IMG/VR virus record: IMGVR_UViG_3300015177_000009
Location: 1-40,085 of that record
Length of the DNA: 40,085 nucleotides
DNA from: a virus
Taxonomy: Duplodnaviria > Heunggongvirae > Uroviricota > Caudoviricetes
Direction: 5' to 3' (one strand)
Shown here in pieces: positions 24,941 to 29,896 of this stretch. The notes under the pieces are model-generated. The model worked only from the letters and a program-made list of their open reading frames with translations. It ran no database searches and was not told the DNA's origin. Within the stretch, counting starts at the first letter, position 1. Each line of letters begins with the position of its first letter. The position numbers and the translations under genes are program-made.

Positions 24941-26077
24941 CTATCCTTCGTTACGAAGATGCTTATCTAAGAATTTTGTAAACTGGTTTGTTGAGCCAAA
25001 ATAGTTGGGGTAGGCTTTTTTTAGTGACTTAATGTTATCTGTAGCAACGAGAACAGATATCAATACATTAGGATCAGAATCGTCTTTATTTAAGGCCTCA
25101 AGGGCTTCATCTGCTTCTTTTGTTTTAAATGCGCGAACAGACACTAGGAACATTTTTTTGTTTTTTGTATTGGGCTTGTTTTCTGCATTTCTCATTGTTA
25201 CTAAGTAATGCCCCTTATGATTTTTTGGCAACTTCTTAATCAAATTCGCGTCAGAAGTTAAATTTAAGGCGAGGGTGTATGTGCTTAGTTTCCTCCGTAC
25301 AGATAAAGTCCGTTCCAGCTCTTTAAGCTCGCCTTCATACTGAGATACAACCAGCTCATCAAGAGTGCAGGCTTTTTCGTCGTGCGCTACAAGACATCCG
25401 GCTAGATAGAAAAATCGTCTCCATTCTGGATGCCCTTCACTTGAAGTTTTCAGCTTGATACCTTCAAGGGTATCAATTATTTCAAGGCTAGTAGCCCAAG
25501 CATGCTGCAATTGAGTTCTTAACTGTATCTCAATCTTTGTTTTTCGCCACGGATATTGCTCCTCTTTCTGATCGAAGCAACTGTATGCAAGGTGGATTCC
25601 ACTATAGCCGCTGTCTTTGGGAGTAAGATAATCATACTCTTTAACAATCCTATGAACAGATTTGCTTTTTAAAAGACGTTCCTTTAGCTGTATCAACTGG
25701 TCTAAGTTTCTGACAATGGCCCTACATCCGCCAACGTCCTGCATCCGTGTTAATTTAATTGCATTGCTAGTTCTGCCTCCATCAAGACTAGGACGCTCTA
25801 GTTTATCTATTATGGTAGAAAGTCGCTTAAGTCTTCTTGCAACGAGAATCTTTTTGTCTTTGTCAACCTTAGCAGCTGCTCTTGCTAAATGATTTTTCAT
25901 GAGCATTAATGGATAAAGATGCAGCTCACGGAAATTTTGTATCATTTCAATAGCTTGCTGCCTTTCTTCGTCACTACACCCGTGCCTTATCAATTGAGCA
26001 GCCCTATCAATTTGAGATTTTGAATATTTCAACTTGCATTTTTGACTTTGATAAACTTCATTCCCCATTGCTTTCAT
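24941..26077 (-). CDS. Fused toxin-antitoxin with RelA/SpoT-homologue (toxSAS) domain, CapRel-like
   Basis: Synthetase-fold motifs GGRTSNAIKL…DVGGCRAIV and YSGIHLAYS…EIQLRTQLQHAWA; about 120-aa C-terminal extension; GC about 35 percent; occupies the P1 res/mod locus. Confidence 0.7.
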   Translation of the reverse strand: MKAMGNEVYQSQKCKLKYSKSQIDRAAQLIRHGCSDEERQQAIEMIQNFRELHLYPLMLMKNHLARAAAKVDKDKKILVARRLKRLSTIIDKLERPSLDGGRTSNAIKLTRMQDVGGCRAIVRNLDQLIQLKERLLKSKSVHRIVKEYDYLTPKDSGYSGIHLAYSCFDQKEEQYPWRKTKIEIQLRTQLQHAWATSLEIIDTLEGIKLKTSSEGHPEWRRFFYLAGCLVAHDEKACTLDELVVSQYEGELKELERTLSVRRKLSTYTLALNLTSDANLIKKLPKNHKGHYLVTMRNAENKPNTKNKKMFLVSVRAFKTKEADEALEALNKDDSDPNVLISVLVATDNIKSLKKAYPNYFGSTNQFTKFLDKHLRNEG

Positions 26078-26170: not shown

Positions 26171-26812
26171 TTAAAAATAATTATGTTTGCCTGTTAATAC
26201 CCCTTTCGGCACTTTTTTTTGTTCCAGTATCTGGGTGCCCAGAATTATGTTAATCAGTGGACTTAGTAACGATGGTTCTTGGCGGGCCTCAACTTCTCCA
26301 GCCATTGCCCTGATGTAGTCGCCGCTGGCAACGTTGTTGTATTCCGTCGCAAAGCAACATAGTAACGTCAGAACATGCTCTGTCGTTATTTCGCTCCAGT
26401 TGATGTTGAAAAATTCATCGCCTTTTTTATCGTGTTCGGAATCGAAGATGCTTTGGTGGAGAATGTATTTGCCGGATTCCTTGCGCGGTAACTTGATCGC
26501 TTTCTGGCGTTCCAGCTCCTTGTAAATCTGCATTGCTTCAATCAGTACCGGCCTGCCGTTCATGAAGGGATCGCGCAACCTTACACGCTGGCCAACTCGA
26601 CCAGTAATAAAGCTGTTTTCCTCTTCCACCAGCACGATAAAACCCTTTTCCTCTTTTTCTCGCAATTCGCGCAGCAGCTGGAGTTCCATGTCGCGGCGGC
26701 GTTCAGAGTAGCTGGTCCGCTCAGCCATTATCAGCTCGTTGTTGATCCATGCAGCAGTCATTGACGCCGGTTTGCCGACGCTCATCGAAACAACGCATAT
26801 TTTCTTATCCAT
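26171..26812 (-). CDS. Hypothetical protein (possibly the backbone mat-position gene)
   Basis: 213-aa ORF; GC about 48-52 percent, unlike the AT-rich genes on either side; no motif recognised. Confidence 0.5.
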   Translation of the reverse strand: MDKKICVVSMSVGKPASMTAAWINNELIMAERTSYSERRRDMELQLLRELREKEEKGFIVLVEEENSFITGRVGQRVRLRDPFMNGRPVLIEAMQIYKELERQKAIKLPRKESGKYILHQSIFDSEHDKKGDEFFNINWSEITTEHVLTLLCCFATEYNNVASGDYIRAMAGEVEARQEPSLLSPLINIILGTQILEQKKVPKGVLTGKHNYF

Positions 26813-26822
26813 AGCGCCCCCT

Positions 26823-26853
26823 ACAAAAAAAGAAAAGCCACCAGTGGCGGCTT
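26823..26853 (-). terminator. Intrinsic terminator after the zinc-ribbon/DUF4145 gene
   Basis: On the minus strand: GCCGCC-ACT-GGTGGC hairpin (one G-U pair) followed by TTTTCTTTTTTT; the T-tract ends about 10 nt before the next start codon. Confidence 0.5.
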
Positions 26854-26970
26854 AGCAATACAGCTGAAGGTAGCGCCCGGTACTCAGACTGTGCCGTCCA
26901 TGGAATATTTGAAAAGGGATCCATCCGTACCGGGCGTGTGATGATTCTGACTGAAGTCACTTGTCAGTTG

Positions 26971-27720
26971 TCAACATTTTTGTTTTTGAGGATTAAATTT
27001 TTTGTCTAGATTATGAGCTAACTCACTAACCTTTTTGCGATTATCCGAATATAAATCACTTAGAATAAAATTCATTATCTCGTATGAGTTATCCAAGTCA
27101 TCTGCGGTAACTTTTTCATAGCGGTGGCTACCCGCATTTCCAAGAAACTTAATCGCAAATAACAGGCTTTTAAAGCCAGAATGTTCACTAGGGATCATCT
27201 CAATTCTATTATGGAGGTTAATTCTATTCCCATTTTCGCTTGTTTCAGTTACCCCGATAGCAGTAAGTAACCGTTCTACAGATGTTCTTATTAGATTTGC
27301 AGCGGCACCTGGATGAATTGTGCTTAGTGCAAACGAGGTGTTTATAGGCAAGGCTATGTCTTCAGGGCACATGTTCGGGATAAGAAATAGCTTTAACGCA
27401 GGAGTAAAACTTAATGGTTCATACCAGCGATAGTAACTAAGCCCTTTATGTTCGCACCAATCTTGTTCTAGACCACTTCTGCCGATACATGCCACTACCT
27501 CCTTACATTGAGGTCTTACGCACTGTGACATACAACTGAATACCGAGCTTGTATACTCTAAGTCAAACCATTCTTCACCCTCCATTTTGACAGTTTCAGC
27601 TGTATCCTTACAGATGAAAGATTCATCTAAAATTTTTAAAGTTGTTTGCCCACAATTAGGACATGGCCATTCAACCATTTTGTTGTCCCAAAATTTTTTG
27701 GGGATTTTGTGTATTGTCAT
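26971..27720 (-). CDS. Cys-rich zinc-ribbon-like N-terminus fused to DUF4145/HEPN-like C-terminal domain; candidate defence protein
   Basis: N-terminal Cys cluster (CPNCG, then C-x3-C-x4-C-x5-C); C-terminal IRTSVERLL…FLGNAGSHRYEKVTADDLDNSYEIMNFILSDLY resembles the DUF4145 signature (R..GN.aaH) as I recall it; GC about 32 percent; has its own terminator. Confidence 0.6.
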   Translation of the reverse strand: MTIHKIPKKFWDNKMVEWPCPNCGQTTLKILDESFICKDTAETVKMEGEEWFDLEYTSSVFSCMSQCVRPQCKEVVACIGRSGLEQDWCEHKGLSYYRWYEPLSFTPALKLFLIPNMCPEDIALPINTSFALSTIHPGAAANLIRTSVERLLTAIGVTETSENGNRINLHNRIEMIPSEHSGFKSLLFAIKFLGNAGSHRYEKVTADDLDNSYEIMNFILSDLYSDNRKKVSELAHNLDKKFNPQKQKC

Positions 27721-27806
27721 ATTTGGCTTATGCCCCGTATATGAAGAACTAATCTCGATAATAACAGAGAAGTTCTGTTTTAATAAAAACCAAAATAATA
27801 AATATA

Positions 27807-28257
27807 TTAGAATAATAAGTTTGCCATCTCATAGGCGTCAGCCAACAGCTCCATCTCTGACTTGTTCCGCAGGGTGAATTCTTTCTTGCCTCCAACCACA
27901 CCATCGGCATGAACAGGGACCAACCAGGGGTATTTTGCTCTTACTTCAGCCGGTGCTGCATGCTGGTGGTGCCATCTACAAAGTGGCAATTGCTTTTTAT
28001 GACAACCCGGCGCGGTACGACCGGAGATATGGTGCAGAGACACCTCTTCAGATATTACTCCATGCATGTAGCAGGCAATGCAGGGGAGAGCGCCAAGAGC
28101 ATTGGCGATGCTCCGTTCCTCCGCCGTCGGTGTTCGCCCCTTCAAGCCACGAGATTTTATCTTTACCGCACTTTTCCCGTTGCCGAGCGATCGCTCGTTC
28201 TCTGGCTGCCTTCTGCCACTCGCGGCGCTGTTCAAGTTTTTGTTCGATTGTTTTCAT
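27807..28257 (-). CDS. ref: Ref-like HNH endonuclease, N-terminus and HNH domain in different frames
   Basis: The ATG at 28257, downstream of a C1 operator, opens MKTIEQKLEQRREWQKAARERAIARQREK…; the HNH domain (CIACYMHGV…HHISGRTAPGCHKKQLPLCRWHHQ) is in the adjacent frame (listed ORF 27807..28235). Confidence 0.55.
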
Positions 28258-28355
28258 ATGGCAAAAAAAAGGCGGCCTAATGGCCGCCAATGATGTCAAG
28301 GAGTTAAGTAATGGCAACGTCTTCGTAGTTGACAAAAACTGCGGCTTAATTATAT

Positions 28356-28864: not shown

Positions 28865-29896
28865 CTAATCGCCATCTTCCAGCAGGCGCACCATTGCCCC
28901 CGTTTCACTATCCAGGTTACGAATGTAGTTCATGACAATATTTACGTTGGTCCAGCCACCAGCTTGCATGATCTCCGGTATAGAAACTCCGGCGCGGGCC
29001 ATATCTCGCGCGGCACCGACACGGGCACTATGTCCAGACCAGGCCAGGTATCGCTGACCAGAGTCATCTTTTGCCCCGTAAATCAATCGGTGAGTTGCTT
29101 CAAAAATCCCTTCCAGGGCGCGAGTTGATAGCTGGCTGGTGGATGATGGAGCGGCAACACCATTTTTTCTGACGCGGCAAAACAGGTAGTTATTCGGATC
29201 ATCAGCTACACCAGAGACAGAAATCCATCGCTCAACCAGTTTAGTTACCCCCAGGCTAAGTGCCTTCTCTACACCAGCGGTGCTAACCAGCGTTTTCGTT
29301 CTGCCAATATGGATTAACATTCTCCCACCGTCAGTACGTGAGATATCTTTAACCCTGATCCTGGCAATTTCGGCTATACGTAACAGGGTGTTATAAGCAA
29401 TCCCCAGAAATGCCAGATTACGTATATCCTGGCAGCGATCGCTATTTTCCATGAGTGAACGAACCTGGTCGAAATCAGTGCGTTCGAACGCTAGAGCCTG
29501 TTTTGCACGTTCACCGGCATCAACGTTTTCTTTTCGGATCCGCCGCATAACCAGTGAAACAGCATTGCTGTCACTTGGTCGTGGCAGCCCGGACCGACGA
29601 TGAAGCATGTTTAGCTGGCCCAAATGTTGCTGGATAGTTTTTACTGCCAGACCGCGCGCCTGAAGATATAGAAGATAATCGCGAACATCTTCAGGTTCTG
29701 CGGGAAACCACTTCCGGTTATTCAACTTGCACCATGCCGCCCACGACCGGCAAACGGACAGAAGCATTTTCCAGGTATGCTCAGAAAACGCCTGGCGATC
29801 CCTGAACATGTCCATCAGGTTCTTGCGAACCTCATCACTCGTTGCATCGACCGGTAATGCAGGCAAATTTTGGTGTACGGTCAGTAAATTGGACAT
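28865..29896 (-). CDS. cre: Cre tyrosine recombinase
   Basis: 343 aa; matches the P1 Cre sequence as I recall it (MSNLLTVHQNLPALPVD…MVRLLEDGD), including the catalytic Tyr context NIVMNYIRN. Confidence 0.97.
   Translation of the reverse strand: MSNLLTVHQNLPALPVDATSDEVRKNLMDMFRDRQAFSEHTWKMLLSVCRSWAAWCKLNNRKWFPAEPEDVRDYLLYLQARGLAVKTIQQHLGQLNMLHRRSGLPRPSDSNAVSLVMRRIRKENVDAGERAKQALAFERTDFDQVRSLMENSDRCQDIRNLAFLGIAYNTLLRIAEIARIRVKDISRTDGGRMLIHIGRTKTLVSTAGVEKALSLGVTKLVERWISVSGVADDPNNYLFCRVRKNGVAAPSSTSQLSTRALEGIFEATHRLIYGAKDDSGQRYLAWSGHSARVGAARDMARAGVSIPEIMQAGGWTNVNIVMNYIRNLDSETGAMVRLLEDGD

What the first reader, a model, noticed from the sequence alone, without database searches (positions are those of the whole stretch)
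26813..26970. Structured leader: 10-bp perfect inverted repeat plus terminator hairpin ending about 10 nt before the next start codon
Between the zinc-ribbon/DUF4145 gene and the 213-aa gene there is a perfect inverted repeat CGCCCGGTAC … GTACCGGGCG (about 26874-26883 and 26929-26938, roughly 45-bp spacer). It is followed on the minus strand by a hairpin plus T-tract terminator whose T-run stops about 10 nt before the 213-aa gene's ATG. That leaves no room for a promoter after the terminator, so the gene must be expressed by read-through or from a promoter upstream of or within the structured region (attenuation-type control). The GC content switches from about 32 to about 50 percent exactly here, marking a cargo/backbone junction.
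Basis: seen in the sequence. Interest (0 to 1): 0.45.

Follow-up and report, generated by a model that had tools for sequence, protein, structure and literature searches.

The report
Conserved structured leader of P1 mat
The inverted repeat and the hairpin are real: together they form a conserved, unannotated RNA leader (a closed stem-loop element followed by a terminator) between the known promoter and the true start of phage P1's maturation gene mat, so mat can only be made by reading through a terminator, and the P1 reference genome hides this leader inside an over-long mat reading frame.

Summary
The window is a P1-like phage-plasmid, and the finding lies in the P1 ref-mat interval. A terminator-like hairpin lies at 26835-26853(-), with a U-tract at 26825-26834 that ends 12 nt before the ATG at 26812.

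P1's annotated composite promoter (Pmat -35, LPmat -22 box, shared -10) sits directly upstream at 26944-26974. The repeat therefore closes a stem about 1-3 nt from the predicted 5' end of the transcript.

Eight lineages from Escherichia, Salmonella, Citrobacter, Pantoea and Erwinia keep the same layout: promoter, closed stem-loop element, variable linker, terminator, SD, mat. Four of the ten stem pairs show compensatory changes. G·U pairs work only on the mat-sense strand. The loop sequence is conserved while neutral sites are saturated. There is no Rfam match.

P1's annotated 250-aa Mat starts inside this leader. That start is an over-extension. All distant homologues begin MDKKIC, which is the window's 213-aa start. 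The frame is broken in 67 of 118 loci.

Most likely function: a leader terminator that attenuates mat and insulates it from upstream read-through. Whether read-through is regulated is unproven. The GC switch is a true cargo junction, but it lies at 26979/26980, upstream of the promoter.

The parts
26969..26974 (-). Pmat -35 hexamer TTGACA. The TGA stop codon of the upstream DUF4145 cargo gene lies inside it.
   Evidence: Identical to the annotated 'minus_35_signal Pmat' of P1 NC_005856. ORF end.
26954..26962 (-). LPmat -22 box AAGTGACTT (element of the P1 late promoters, which depend on the activator Lpa)
   Evidence: Annotated in P1 and P7. Matches the -22 boxes of five other annotated P1 late promoters, with the same 4-nt spacing to the -10. 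Conserved in all leader lineages.
26944..26949 (-). Shared -10 hexamer CAGAAT of Pmat and LPmat. The transcription start is inferred at about 26936-26938.
   Evidence: P1 annotation. The start site is inferred from the usual 6-8 nt distance and has not been measured.
26927..26936 (-). 5' arm of the closing stem (CGCCCGGUAC), at the predicted 5' end of the transcript
   Evidence: Covariation.
26884..26926 (-). Conserved 43-nt interior with two small hairpins (about 26920-26924/26900-26904 and 26893-26895/26887-26889) and the nearly invariant GGACGGCAC (26891-26899; one lineage, L095, reads GGACGGTAC). It contains the invariant AUG at 26922-26924, which P1 annotates as the mat start.
   Evidence: Loop identity is 70-82% to lineages whose 4-fold sites are about 45% identical. 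Consensus and single-sequence folds agree.
26874..26883 (-). 3' arm of the closing stem (GUACCGGGCG)
26854..26873 (-). Variable linker. It is not conserved and its length differs between lineages.
   Evidence: 10-37% identity to distant lineages. Indels.
26835..26853 (-). Intrinsic-terminator-like hairpin AAGCCGCC-ACU-GGUGGCUU
   Evidence: Kept in all lineages, with G·U to G-C changes.
26825..26834 (-). U-tract UUCUUUUUUU. The T7 run at 26825-26831 has one T more than in P1 and P7.
26817..26822 (-). Shine-Dalgarno AGGGGG of mat
   Evidence: Read from the sequence. Purine-rich in every lineage.
26171..26812 (-). mat (213 aa). The true start is at 26812.
   Evidence: All homologues down to 39% identity start MDKKIC. 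Most database entries are 213 aa.
26979..26980 (.). Junction between P1 backbone and cargo (DUF4145 gene 26971-27720). The other end of the insert is near 27790.
   Evidence: P1 homology covers 26601-26979 and resumes at the ref 3' end. GC profile.
27800..27816 (-). C1-operator-like site homologous in position to P1 Omat. The 0.8-kb insert now separates it from Pmat.
   Evidence: P1 annotation of Omat.

Best explanation
The region is the 5' leader of the P1 maturation gene mat. It is transcribed from the composite Pmat/LPmat promoter at 26944-26974. The inverted repeat is the closing stem of a conserved RNA element of about 65 nt. This stem starts about 1-3 nt from the transcript's 5' end and encloses two small hairpins and a conserved unpaired sequence. 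After a variable linker of about 20 nt comes a true intrinsic-terminator hairpin with a U-tract, then the SD, then the mat ATG at 26812. Every transcript that reaches mat must read through this terminator, whether it starts at mat's own promoter or upstream in ref or the cargo gene. The terminator therefore attenuates mat expression and shields mat from upstream read-through. Terminated transcripts should leave a leader RNA of about 110 nt, with the 5' stem expected to stabilise it. Shown here: the sequence features, their conservation and covariation, the strand, that the leader is non-coding, and the promoter by homology to the P1 annotation. Inferred: the transcription start, termination in vivo, and the attenuator/insulator role. 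Whether read-through is conditional is unknown.
For: P1 homology and the annotated promoter elements are identical in the window. The sense-strand fold has z = -3.6. Eight lineages each fold on their own into the same layout, with terminator dG of -10 to -15 kcal/mol and a U-rich tail. In the closing stem, 4 of 10 pairs show changes on both sides (CG/UA/AU/UG, GC/AU/GU, UA/UG/CG, GC/AU/GU). 97-98% of cells are paired, against 33-47% when the partners are slid. No shuffle in 500 reaches the observed covariation score. The L083/L094 lineage keeps pairing only through G·U on the mat-sense strand, which argues for RNA and against a DNA palindrome. The stem-loop is 71-78% identical and the terminator 60-79% identical to distant lineages. 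In the same comparisons, 4-fold sites are about 45% identical and the linker 10-37%. Non-coding status rests on two results: Mat homologues all start MDKKIC, and the upstream ATG is out of frame or stopped in 67 of 118 loci. More remote Mat lineages (29-39% identity) also carry a terminator directly before the SD. The neighbouring gene ref has the same promoter-hairpin-T8-ATG design. The 1988 study of ref by Windle et al. is titled as evidence for 'attenuator-antiterminator control' (reference list in PMC10695390). Mat's predicted fold is nuclease-like, which would make tight insulation sensible.
Against: There are no transcript data: the start site, termination efficiency and the short RNA are all unmeasured. 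Covariation comes from only about eight lineages and about four variable pairs, and the terminator stem shows only one-sided (G·U to G-C) changes. The strongly conserved unpaired loop sequence is not explained by a simple insulator or stabiliser role. One Mat lineage (L128-L130, 40-42% identity) uses the ordinary order terminator-promoter-gene, so placing the terminator after the promoter is not obligatory for mat. The key paper on mat regulation (Lehnherr et al. 2001) could not be read. It may already contain relevant reporter or mapping data.
Confidence: 0.55

Rival explanations
1. Conditional riboregulator. The closing stem acts as an anti-antiterminator. When it is prevented from forming (by a phage or host factor, or by a ribosome on the upstream ORF), GGACGGC in the loop pairs with GCCGCC, the 5' arm of the terminator. 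The terminator then cannot form and mat is switched on.
For: GGACGGC (C to U in L095, still pairing as U·G) and GCCGCC (invariant) are complementary with one bulged A. With the 5' arm blocked, the minimum-energy fold of the nascent RNA makes this pairing in the window, P1 and L088. The conserved unpaired loop sequence suggests a specific ligand or partner. An invariant AUG opens an upstream ORF that always ends 4-6 nt before the terminator arm or runs through it, so a ribosome there would mask the terminator, as in pyrBI.
Against: The alternative pairing is not predicted in L083, L126, L115 or L124. Both segments hardly vary, so there is no covariation to test the pairing. The upstream AUG has no clear SD and sits 3 nt from a stable stem. 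The peptide and its frame are not conserved, and a second frame is equally open, so the open frame may be chance. No candidate factor is known.
Confidence: 0.2
2. The main product is the terminated RNA of about 110 nt, acting in trans as a small regulatory RNA. Its 5' stem-loop would carry a conserved seed, and the Rho-independent terminator with its long U tail would be the Hfq-type module. On this reading mat read-through is secondary.
For: It has its own promoter, a stable 5' structure, a conserved pyrimidine-rich unpaired stretch (CCCUUUUC / CUCUUUUC), and a terminator with 8 or more U. Loop sequence conservation exceeds what the structure alone needs.
Against: The element is always directly in front of mat and never elsewhere: the covariance model finds a single copy in the window (116 bits, next best 18 bits). 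A duplex scan of the loop against the 40-kb window found nothing better than shuffled loops (best -35.2, null -34 to -43). No transcript evidence exists. The host genome and the rest of the phage were not scanned.
Confidence: 0.12
3. The stretch is coding: it is the N-terminal 37 residues of a 250-aa Mat, as annotated in the P1 and P7 reference genomes. On this reading the repeat and hairpin are incidental, and the window's extra T is a frameshift or a sequencing error.
For: P1 and P7 annotate mat from the ATG equivalent to 26924. 51 of 118 loci keep the two ATGs in frame. The window differs from P1 by one T in a homopolymer.
Against: 67 of 118 loci break the frame through lineage-linked T6/T7, G4/G5 and other indels. 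The L088, L089 and L115 lineages have in-frame stops. Nucleotides are conserved but are read in different frames, so the peptides differ. All homologues down to 39% identity begin MDKKIC, and most database entries are 213 aa. The good SD precedes the downstream ATG, not the upstream one.
Confidence: 0.04
4. A DNA-level feature: a protein-binding palindrome (operator) or a scar of the cargo insertion at the GC junction.
For: The DNA palindrome is perfect in the window, and a GC switch and a cargo junction lie nearby.
Against: The arms are 43 bp apart. The repeat lies wholly inside P1 backbone and is present in P1 itself, which has no insert. In L083/L094 the DNA palindrome is broken (GTGC/GTGC) while RNA pairing survives through G·U on one strand only. 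G·U pairs are frequent throughout the structure. The known C1 operator is a different sequence at a different place.
Confidence: 0.03

Closest known systems
Leader of the neighbouring P1 gene ref. [quoted passage not shown]
   Same: Same genome and same strand, about 1.4 kb upstream. A promoter controlled by a C1 operator is followed by a GC-rich hairpin plus T-run that ends a few nt before the start codon (28271-28288, T8, ATG at 28257).
   Different: The ref leader has no closing-stem element. The mat model matches it only over the terminator part (18 bits). The Windle paper could not be read, so only its title is cited.
Classical enterobacterial leader attenuators (trp type, pyrBI type)
   Same: An intrinsic terminator lies between the promoter and the first codon. 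An upstream ORF runs up to or through the terminator, as in pyrBI. A possible three-part alternative pairing exists in some lineages.
   Different: The upstream ORF has no clear SD, its peptide and frame are not conserved, and it has no regulatory codon run. An antiterminator is not predicted in all lineages.
Lambda late promoter PR' with 6S leader RNA, terminator tR' and Q antitermination (established knowledge, not tested here)
   Same: A late-phase promoter makes a short terminated leader RNA, and the downstream gene needs read-through.
   Different: Lpa of P1 is annotated and known as an activator acting at the -22 box, not as an antiterminator. No Q-binding or pause element was looked for. 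A single gene lies downstream rather than the late operon.
Cis-acting processive antitermination RNAs such as HK022 put (from general knowledge)
   Same: A structured RNA with two small hairpins sits right at the 5' end of the transcript, followed closely by a terminator.
   Different: No similarity was established, and no Rfam family matched at any useful score. A put-like element followed at once by its only terminator would serve no obvious purpose.
Hfq-type small RNAs and sRNAs derived from 5' UTRs by premature termination
   Same: Own promoter, 5' stem-loop, conserved unpaired stretch, and a Rho-independent terminator with a long U tail.
   Different: Always fused to mat. No target was found in the window. 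Hfq binding cannot be tested here.

Membership tests
Intrinsic (Rho-independent) terminator | GC-rich stem of at least 5 pairs with a short loop | tested here: met
   8 pairs, 5 of them G-C, 3-nt loop, dG -11 kcal/mol. Between -10 and -15 kcal/mol in the other lineages.
Intrinsic (Rho-independent) terminator | U-tract directly 3' of the stem | tested here: met
   UUCUUUUUUU at 26834-26825. U-rich tails are present in all lineages.
Intrinsic (Rho-independent) terminator | Stem maintained in evolution | tested here: met
   96-98% of cells paired. G·U to G-C and A-U to G·U changes occur, but no pair changes on both sides.
Intrinsic (Rho-independent) terminator | RNA 3' ends form at the U-tract in vivo or in vitro | not testable with these tools
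   Needs Term-seq, 3' RACE or in vitro transcription.
Transcription attenuator (leader terminator) | Promoter upstream of the terminator, with no promoter between terminator and start codon | tested here: met
   Pmat/LPmat at 26944-26974, by identity to the P1 annotation and agreement with other late promoters. Only 12 nt lie between the T-run and the ATG. The promoter itself is a GenBank annotation and was not measured here.
Transcription attenuator (leader terminator) | Mutually exclusive antiterminator structure, or a defined factor that suppresses the terminator | tested here: inconclusive
   The GGACGGC:GCCGCC pairing appears in 3 of 7 lineages when the closing stem is blocked. No covariation is possible. 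No factor is known.
Transcription attenuator (leader terminator) | Translated leader peptide (for the ribosome-mediated type) | tested here: inconclusive
   An invariant AUG opens an ORF that reaches the terminator. It has no clear SD, the frame and peptide are not conserved, and another frame is equally open.
Any curated RNA family (Rfam 15) | Score at or above the family's gathering threshold | tested here: not met
   Best hits score 14-19 bits against thresholds of 45-60, with E of 0.58 or more.
Conserved structured RNA (general criteria) | Compensatory base changes, strand specificity, and conservation above the neutral rate | tested here: met
mat coding sequence as annotated in P1 (250 aa) | Reading frame and peptide conserved among relatives | tested here: not met
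   The frame is broken in 67 of 118 loci. The peptides differ between lineages. All homologues start MDKKIC.
Trans-acting Hfq-type sRNA | Own promoter and a Rho-independent terminator with a U tail | tested here: met
Trans-acting Hfq-type sRNA | Conserved seed with a complementary target | tested here: inconclusive
   The loop is conserved, but no target better than chance was found in the 40-kb window. The host and the rest of the phage were not scanned.
DNA palindromic operator | Symmetry kept at the DNA level in relatives | tested here: not met
   L083/L094 have GTGC in both arms, which pairs only as RNA through G·U.

The most novel reading that the evidence does not exclude
The closed stem-loop element is a new phage-plasmid riboregulator. 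It would sense a phage or host signal, such as Lpa-modified polymerase, Mat itself, a translating ribosome or a small molecule. It would then switch between a terminator form and an antiterminator form (GGACGGC:GCCGCC). This would add a third, RNA-level layer to the C1 and Lpa control of mat. At the same time it would release an abundant leader RNA of about 110 nt that could act in trans.
Probability: 0.22. Interest if true: 0.7.

Novelty: new member of a known kind. Interest (0 to 1): 0.5.

Why it matters
P1 is one of the most used and best annotated phages, yet this conserved RNA element is hidden in its reference annotation, which reads it as the N-terminus of Mat. Recognising it has four consequences. 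It corrects the mat gene model to 213 aa, starting at P1 position about 2827. It shows that mat is controlled at a third level, a leader terminator, besides the C1 operator and the Lpa-dependent late promoter. It gives Rfam-style annotation a new candidate family for P1-like phage-plasmids of Enterobacterales. It explains why cargo genes inserted upstream, such as the DUF4145 gene here, need no terminator of their own and do not turn on mat. Mat is essential according to the amber-mutant literature cited. Its predicted fold resembles a terminase or RuvC nuclease, so leaky expression may be harmful.

Tried and rejected
- Rfam scan of 26600-27200 with permissive thresholds: nothing useful.
- Covariance model search of the window and of distant loci for further copies: one copy per genome. 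Distant Mat lineages match only over the terminator.
- Duplex scan of the conserved loop against both strands of the window for a trans target: the best energy falls within the shuffled-loop null. The energies are inflated by large internal loops, so this is a weak test.
- Test of a cis anti-SD pairing (loop UCCCU/ACUCU with SD AGGGG/AGAG/GGAG): compatible in every lineage. L124 pairs ACUCU with AGGGG only through wobbles, and any pyrimidine stretch would pair with any SD, so this was not pursued (sequences).
- Leader-peptide idea: examined and kept only as a low-probability rival.
- Coding reading (the P1 annotation): rejected.
- DNA operator or insertion scar: rejected.
- Literature: Lobocka 2004, Lehnherr 2001 and Windle 1988 are not held in the library. 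P1 transcriptome papers that are held do not mention mat, sRNAs or terminators in this region. No P1 paper mapping transcription starts or terminators was found.
- The genome-contig scan added only five loci.

Full report
**Context.** The window is a P1-like phage-plasmid. On the minus strand it carries, in order:
- cre (28865-29896);
- a ref homologue (HNH/RecA_dep_nuc domain, 27807-28235);
- a DUF4145 gene (26971-27720);
- the 213-aa ORF (26171-26812);
- a RelA/SpoT-like gene (24941-26077).

darB lies on the plus strand. Megablast of 26600-27100 against phage genomes gives 19 P1/P7-type records at 96.6-98.2% identity. In all of them the homology covers 26601 to about 26975-26979, and the feature under the match is mat, 'maturation control'.

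**Observation.** The perfect 10-bp inverted repeat exists at 26874-26883 and 26927-26936, with 43 nt between the arms. On the minus strand the hairpin AAGCCGCC-ACT-GGTGGCTT (26853-26835) is followed by TTCTTTTTTT (26834-26825). Then come GTAGGGGGCGCT and the ATG at 26812. GC drops from 0.52 to 0.34 across 26900. A single perfect 10-bp repeat is not rare in 40 kb: 2.4 seeds are expected by chance. But the 115-nt sense strand folds far better than shuffles, with z = -3.6 and 1 of 200 shuffles as good. The antisense strand gives z = -2.6.

**What P1's own annotation says.** In NC_005856 this interval carries three annotated elements:
- a 'predicted sigma70 promoter Pmat';
- the 'late promoter LPmat', with a -22 region and a shared -10;
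- further upstream, the C1 operator Omat, overlapping the end of ref.

The window is identical over the promoter. The coordinates are -35 TTGACA at 26969-26974, -22 box AAGTGACTT at 26954-26962, and -10 CAGAAT at 26944-26949. The -22 box and its 4-nt spacing to the -10 agree with five other annotated P1 late promoters. A start 6-8 nt after the -10 (inferred, not measured) puts the transcript's 5' end about 1-3 nt before the 5' arm of the repeat. P1 and P7 also annotate mat as 250 aa, starting at the ATG equivalent to 26924. The window has T7 where P1 and P7 have T6 (26825-26831). This splits the long frame into a 51-aa ORF and the 213-aa ORF.

**Coding or not.** Of 118 related loci that carry this leader, 51 keep the two ATGs fused in frame and 67 do not. 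The differences are lineage-linked indels just after the hairpin: T6/T7, G4/G5, GTGGGG and CTTTC. In more distant lineages the upstream frame stops before the hairpin (L088, L089, L115). The same conserved nucleotides are read in different frames, so the peptides are unrelated beyond the first few residues. Ten Mat homologues down to 39% identity all begin MDKKIC, and most database entries are 213 aa. The good SD (AGGGGG, 4-nt spacer) precedes the downstream ATG. The 213-aa ORF is therefore the real gene, the P1 annotation is over-extended, and the 112 nt between the two ATGs are non-coding.

**Conservation and structure.** Leaders were collected through Mat homologues from viral, genome and metagenome collections, plus a DNA pattern scan. 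Eight lineages from Escherichia, Salmonella, Citrobacter, Pantoea and Erwinia contigs show the same order: late-promoter boxes, closing stem, conserved interior, variable linker, terminator hairpin with U-tract, SD, ATG.

- **Independent folding.** Each lineage folds on its own into the same shape. The closing stem has 10-13 pairs and encloses two small hairpins, with an element dG of about -27 kcal/mol in most lineages (-19 to -29 overall). The terminator dG is -10 to -15 kcal/mol.
- **Covariation.** In the 16-sequence alignment, 4 of the 10 closing-stem pairs change on both sides (CG/UA/AU/UG; GC/AU/GU; UA/UG/CG; GC/AU/GU). 97% of cells pair, against 34-47% when partners are slid by 1-3 columns. 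No shuffle in 500 reaches the observed covariation score (the 26-sequence set gives the same picture).
- **Limits of that evidence.** The terminator stem varies only on one side (G·U to G-C). The lineages are few, so the covariation evidence is good rather than overwhelming.
- **Strand.** In L083/L094 both arms read GTGC. This pairs only as RNA (U·G, G·U) on the mat-sense strand and breaks the DNA palindrome. G·U pairs are common throughout the structure. The element is therefore an RNA on the mat strand.
- **Selection.** The comparison is with lineages whose Mat is 55-73% identical. There, 4-fold sites are about 45% identical and the linker 10-37%. Yet the stem-loop is 71-78% identical, its unpaired interior 70-82% and the terminator 60-79%, similar to first and second codon positions. 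GGACGGCAC in the interior is nearly invariant (one lineage has T for C).
- **Database matches.** Rfam has no match. A covariance model built from the alignment finds one copy in the window (26825-26939, 116 bits). The next-best distinct locus is the ref leader, at 18 bits.

**Wider family.**
- Three remote Mat lineages (29-39% identity; L084, L131, L132) lack the closing-stem element. They still have a GC hairpin plus U-tract that ends 15-25 nt before the ATG.
- One lineage (L128-L130, 40-42%) has the ordinary order instead: terminator, then a TATAAT promoter, then mat.

A terminator between upstream genes and mat is thus the most general feature. Placing it after the promoter is characteristic of the P1 clade and of some remote relatives.

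**Mechanism.** The solid points are that the promoter lies upstream of the structure, that no promoter can fit after the terminator, and that the layout is under selection. The likeliest working model therefore has four parts:
1. Transcripts from Pmat/LPmat begin with a stable 5' stem. Such stems generally protect against 5'-end-dependent decay (general knowledge).
2. Most transcripts stop at the leader terminator, giving an RNA of about 110 nt.
3. A fraction reads through to mat.
4. The same terminator stops transcription arriving from ref or from inserted cargo.

**What remains open.** The strongly conserved unpaired sequence is not explained by this minimal model.
- **A switch is possible.** GGACGGC can pair with GCCGCC, the terminator's 5' arm. 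This pairing appears in the minimum-energy fold of the nascent RNA when the closing stem is blocked, but only in 3 of 7 lineages.
- **A ribosome-mediated version is possible.** The upstream ORF always reaches the terminator. However, it has no clear SD, and the open frame may be chance.
- **A trans-acting sRNA role is possible.** It gets no support from a scan of the window.

**The junction.** P1 homology ends at 26979/26980, just upstream of the -35, and resumes at the ref 3' end near 27790. The DUF4145 gene is therefore a 0.8-kb insert placed between the Omat-like operator (27800-27816) and Pmat. The GC switch marks this junction, not the structured leader. One consequence is that the operator annotated in P1 as controlling mat is no longer next to Pmat here.

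**Verdict.** The feature is a conserved, uncatalogued leader RNA of a well-known phage gene, masked by an over-extended ORF in the reference annotation. It is a new member of a known kind and of moderate interest.

Noticed in passing
[not shown]
   Followed up: partly
window 27807-28257 (-): ref carries a 110-bp internal deletion relative to P1, which breaks the frame after about 29 codons. The HNH/RecA_dep_nuc domain remains as an ORF that opens only with TTG.
   Followed up: partly
window 28257-28288 (-): ref has the same design as mat: the hairpin GGCGGCC-ATTA-GGCCGCC plus T8 ends 5 nt before the ref ATG, downstream of the annotated ref promoters and the Oref operator.
   Followed up: partly
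window 26971-27816: A 0.8-kb cargo insert carries a DUF4145 gene (weak PADLOC hit to PD-T7-4, E 0.005). It sits exactly between the Omat-like C1 operator and the Pmat -35, and its TGA stop lies inside the -35 hexamer. C1 control of Pmat may be lost or weakened in this element. The same insert junction is seen in L025, and a similar one in L007.
   Followed up: partly
window 24941-26077 (-): A RelA/SpoT-domain protein of 378 aa occupies the place of P1's type III res/mod genes. It matches the PADLOC candidate defence family PDC-S33 at E 4e-86.
   Followed up: no
L119-L121 (metagenome contigs), upstream of mat: AT-rich foreign DNA replaces the promoter and the whole stem-loop element right up to the terminator. 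The new 5' arm (AAGCCAC) still pairs with the old 3' arm, so a hybrid hairpin is kept. The mat match there spans only about 450 nt.
   Followed up: no
L128-L130 (Pantoea / Nissabacter-type, Mat 40-42% identical): These relatives use the ordinary order: terminator, then a promoter containing TATAAT and a C1-operator-like AGATACTAATTTTATAAT, then mat. They have no leader terminator.
   Followed up: no
L059/L061, upstream of mat: The promoter region is diverged (AAATTACTT -22 box, CAAAAT -10). Sequence becomes 100% identical to the window across the stem-loop, starting exactly at the first base of the closing stem. This suggests a recombination boundary at the transcript start.
   Followed up: no
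window 26817-26831 (-): Two homopolymers between the hairpin and the ATG vary among relatives: T6/T7 in the U-tract and G4/G5 in the SD. The variants are linked to lineages, so they are real rather than sequencing noise. Their effect on termination or translation is unknown.
   Followed up: partly
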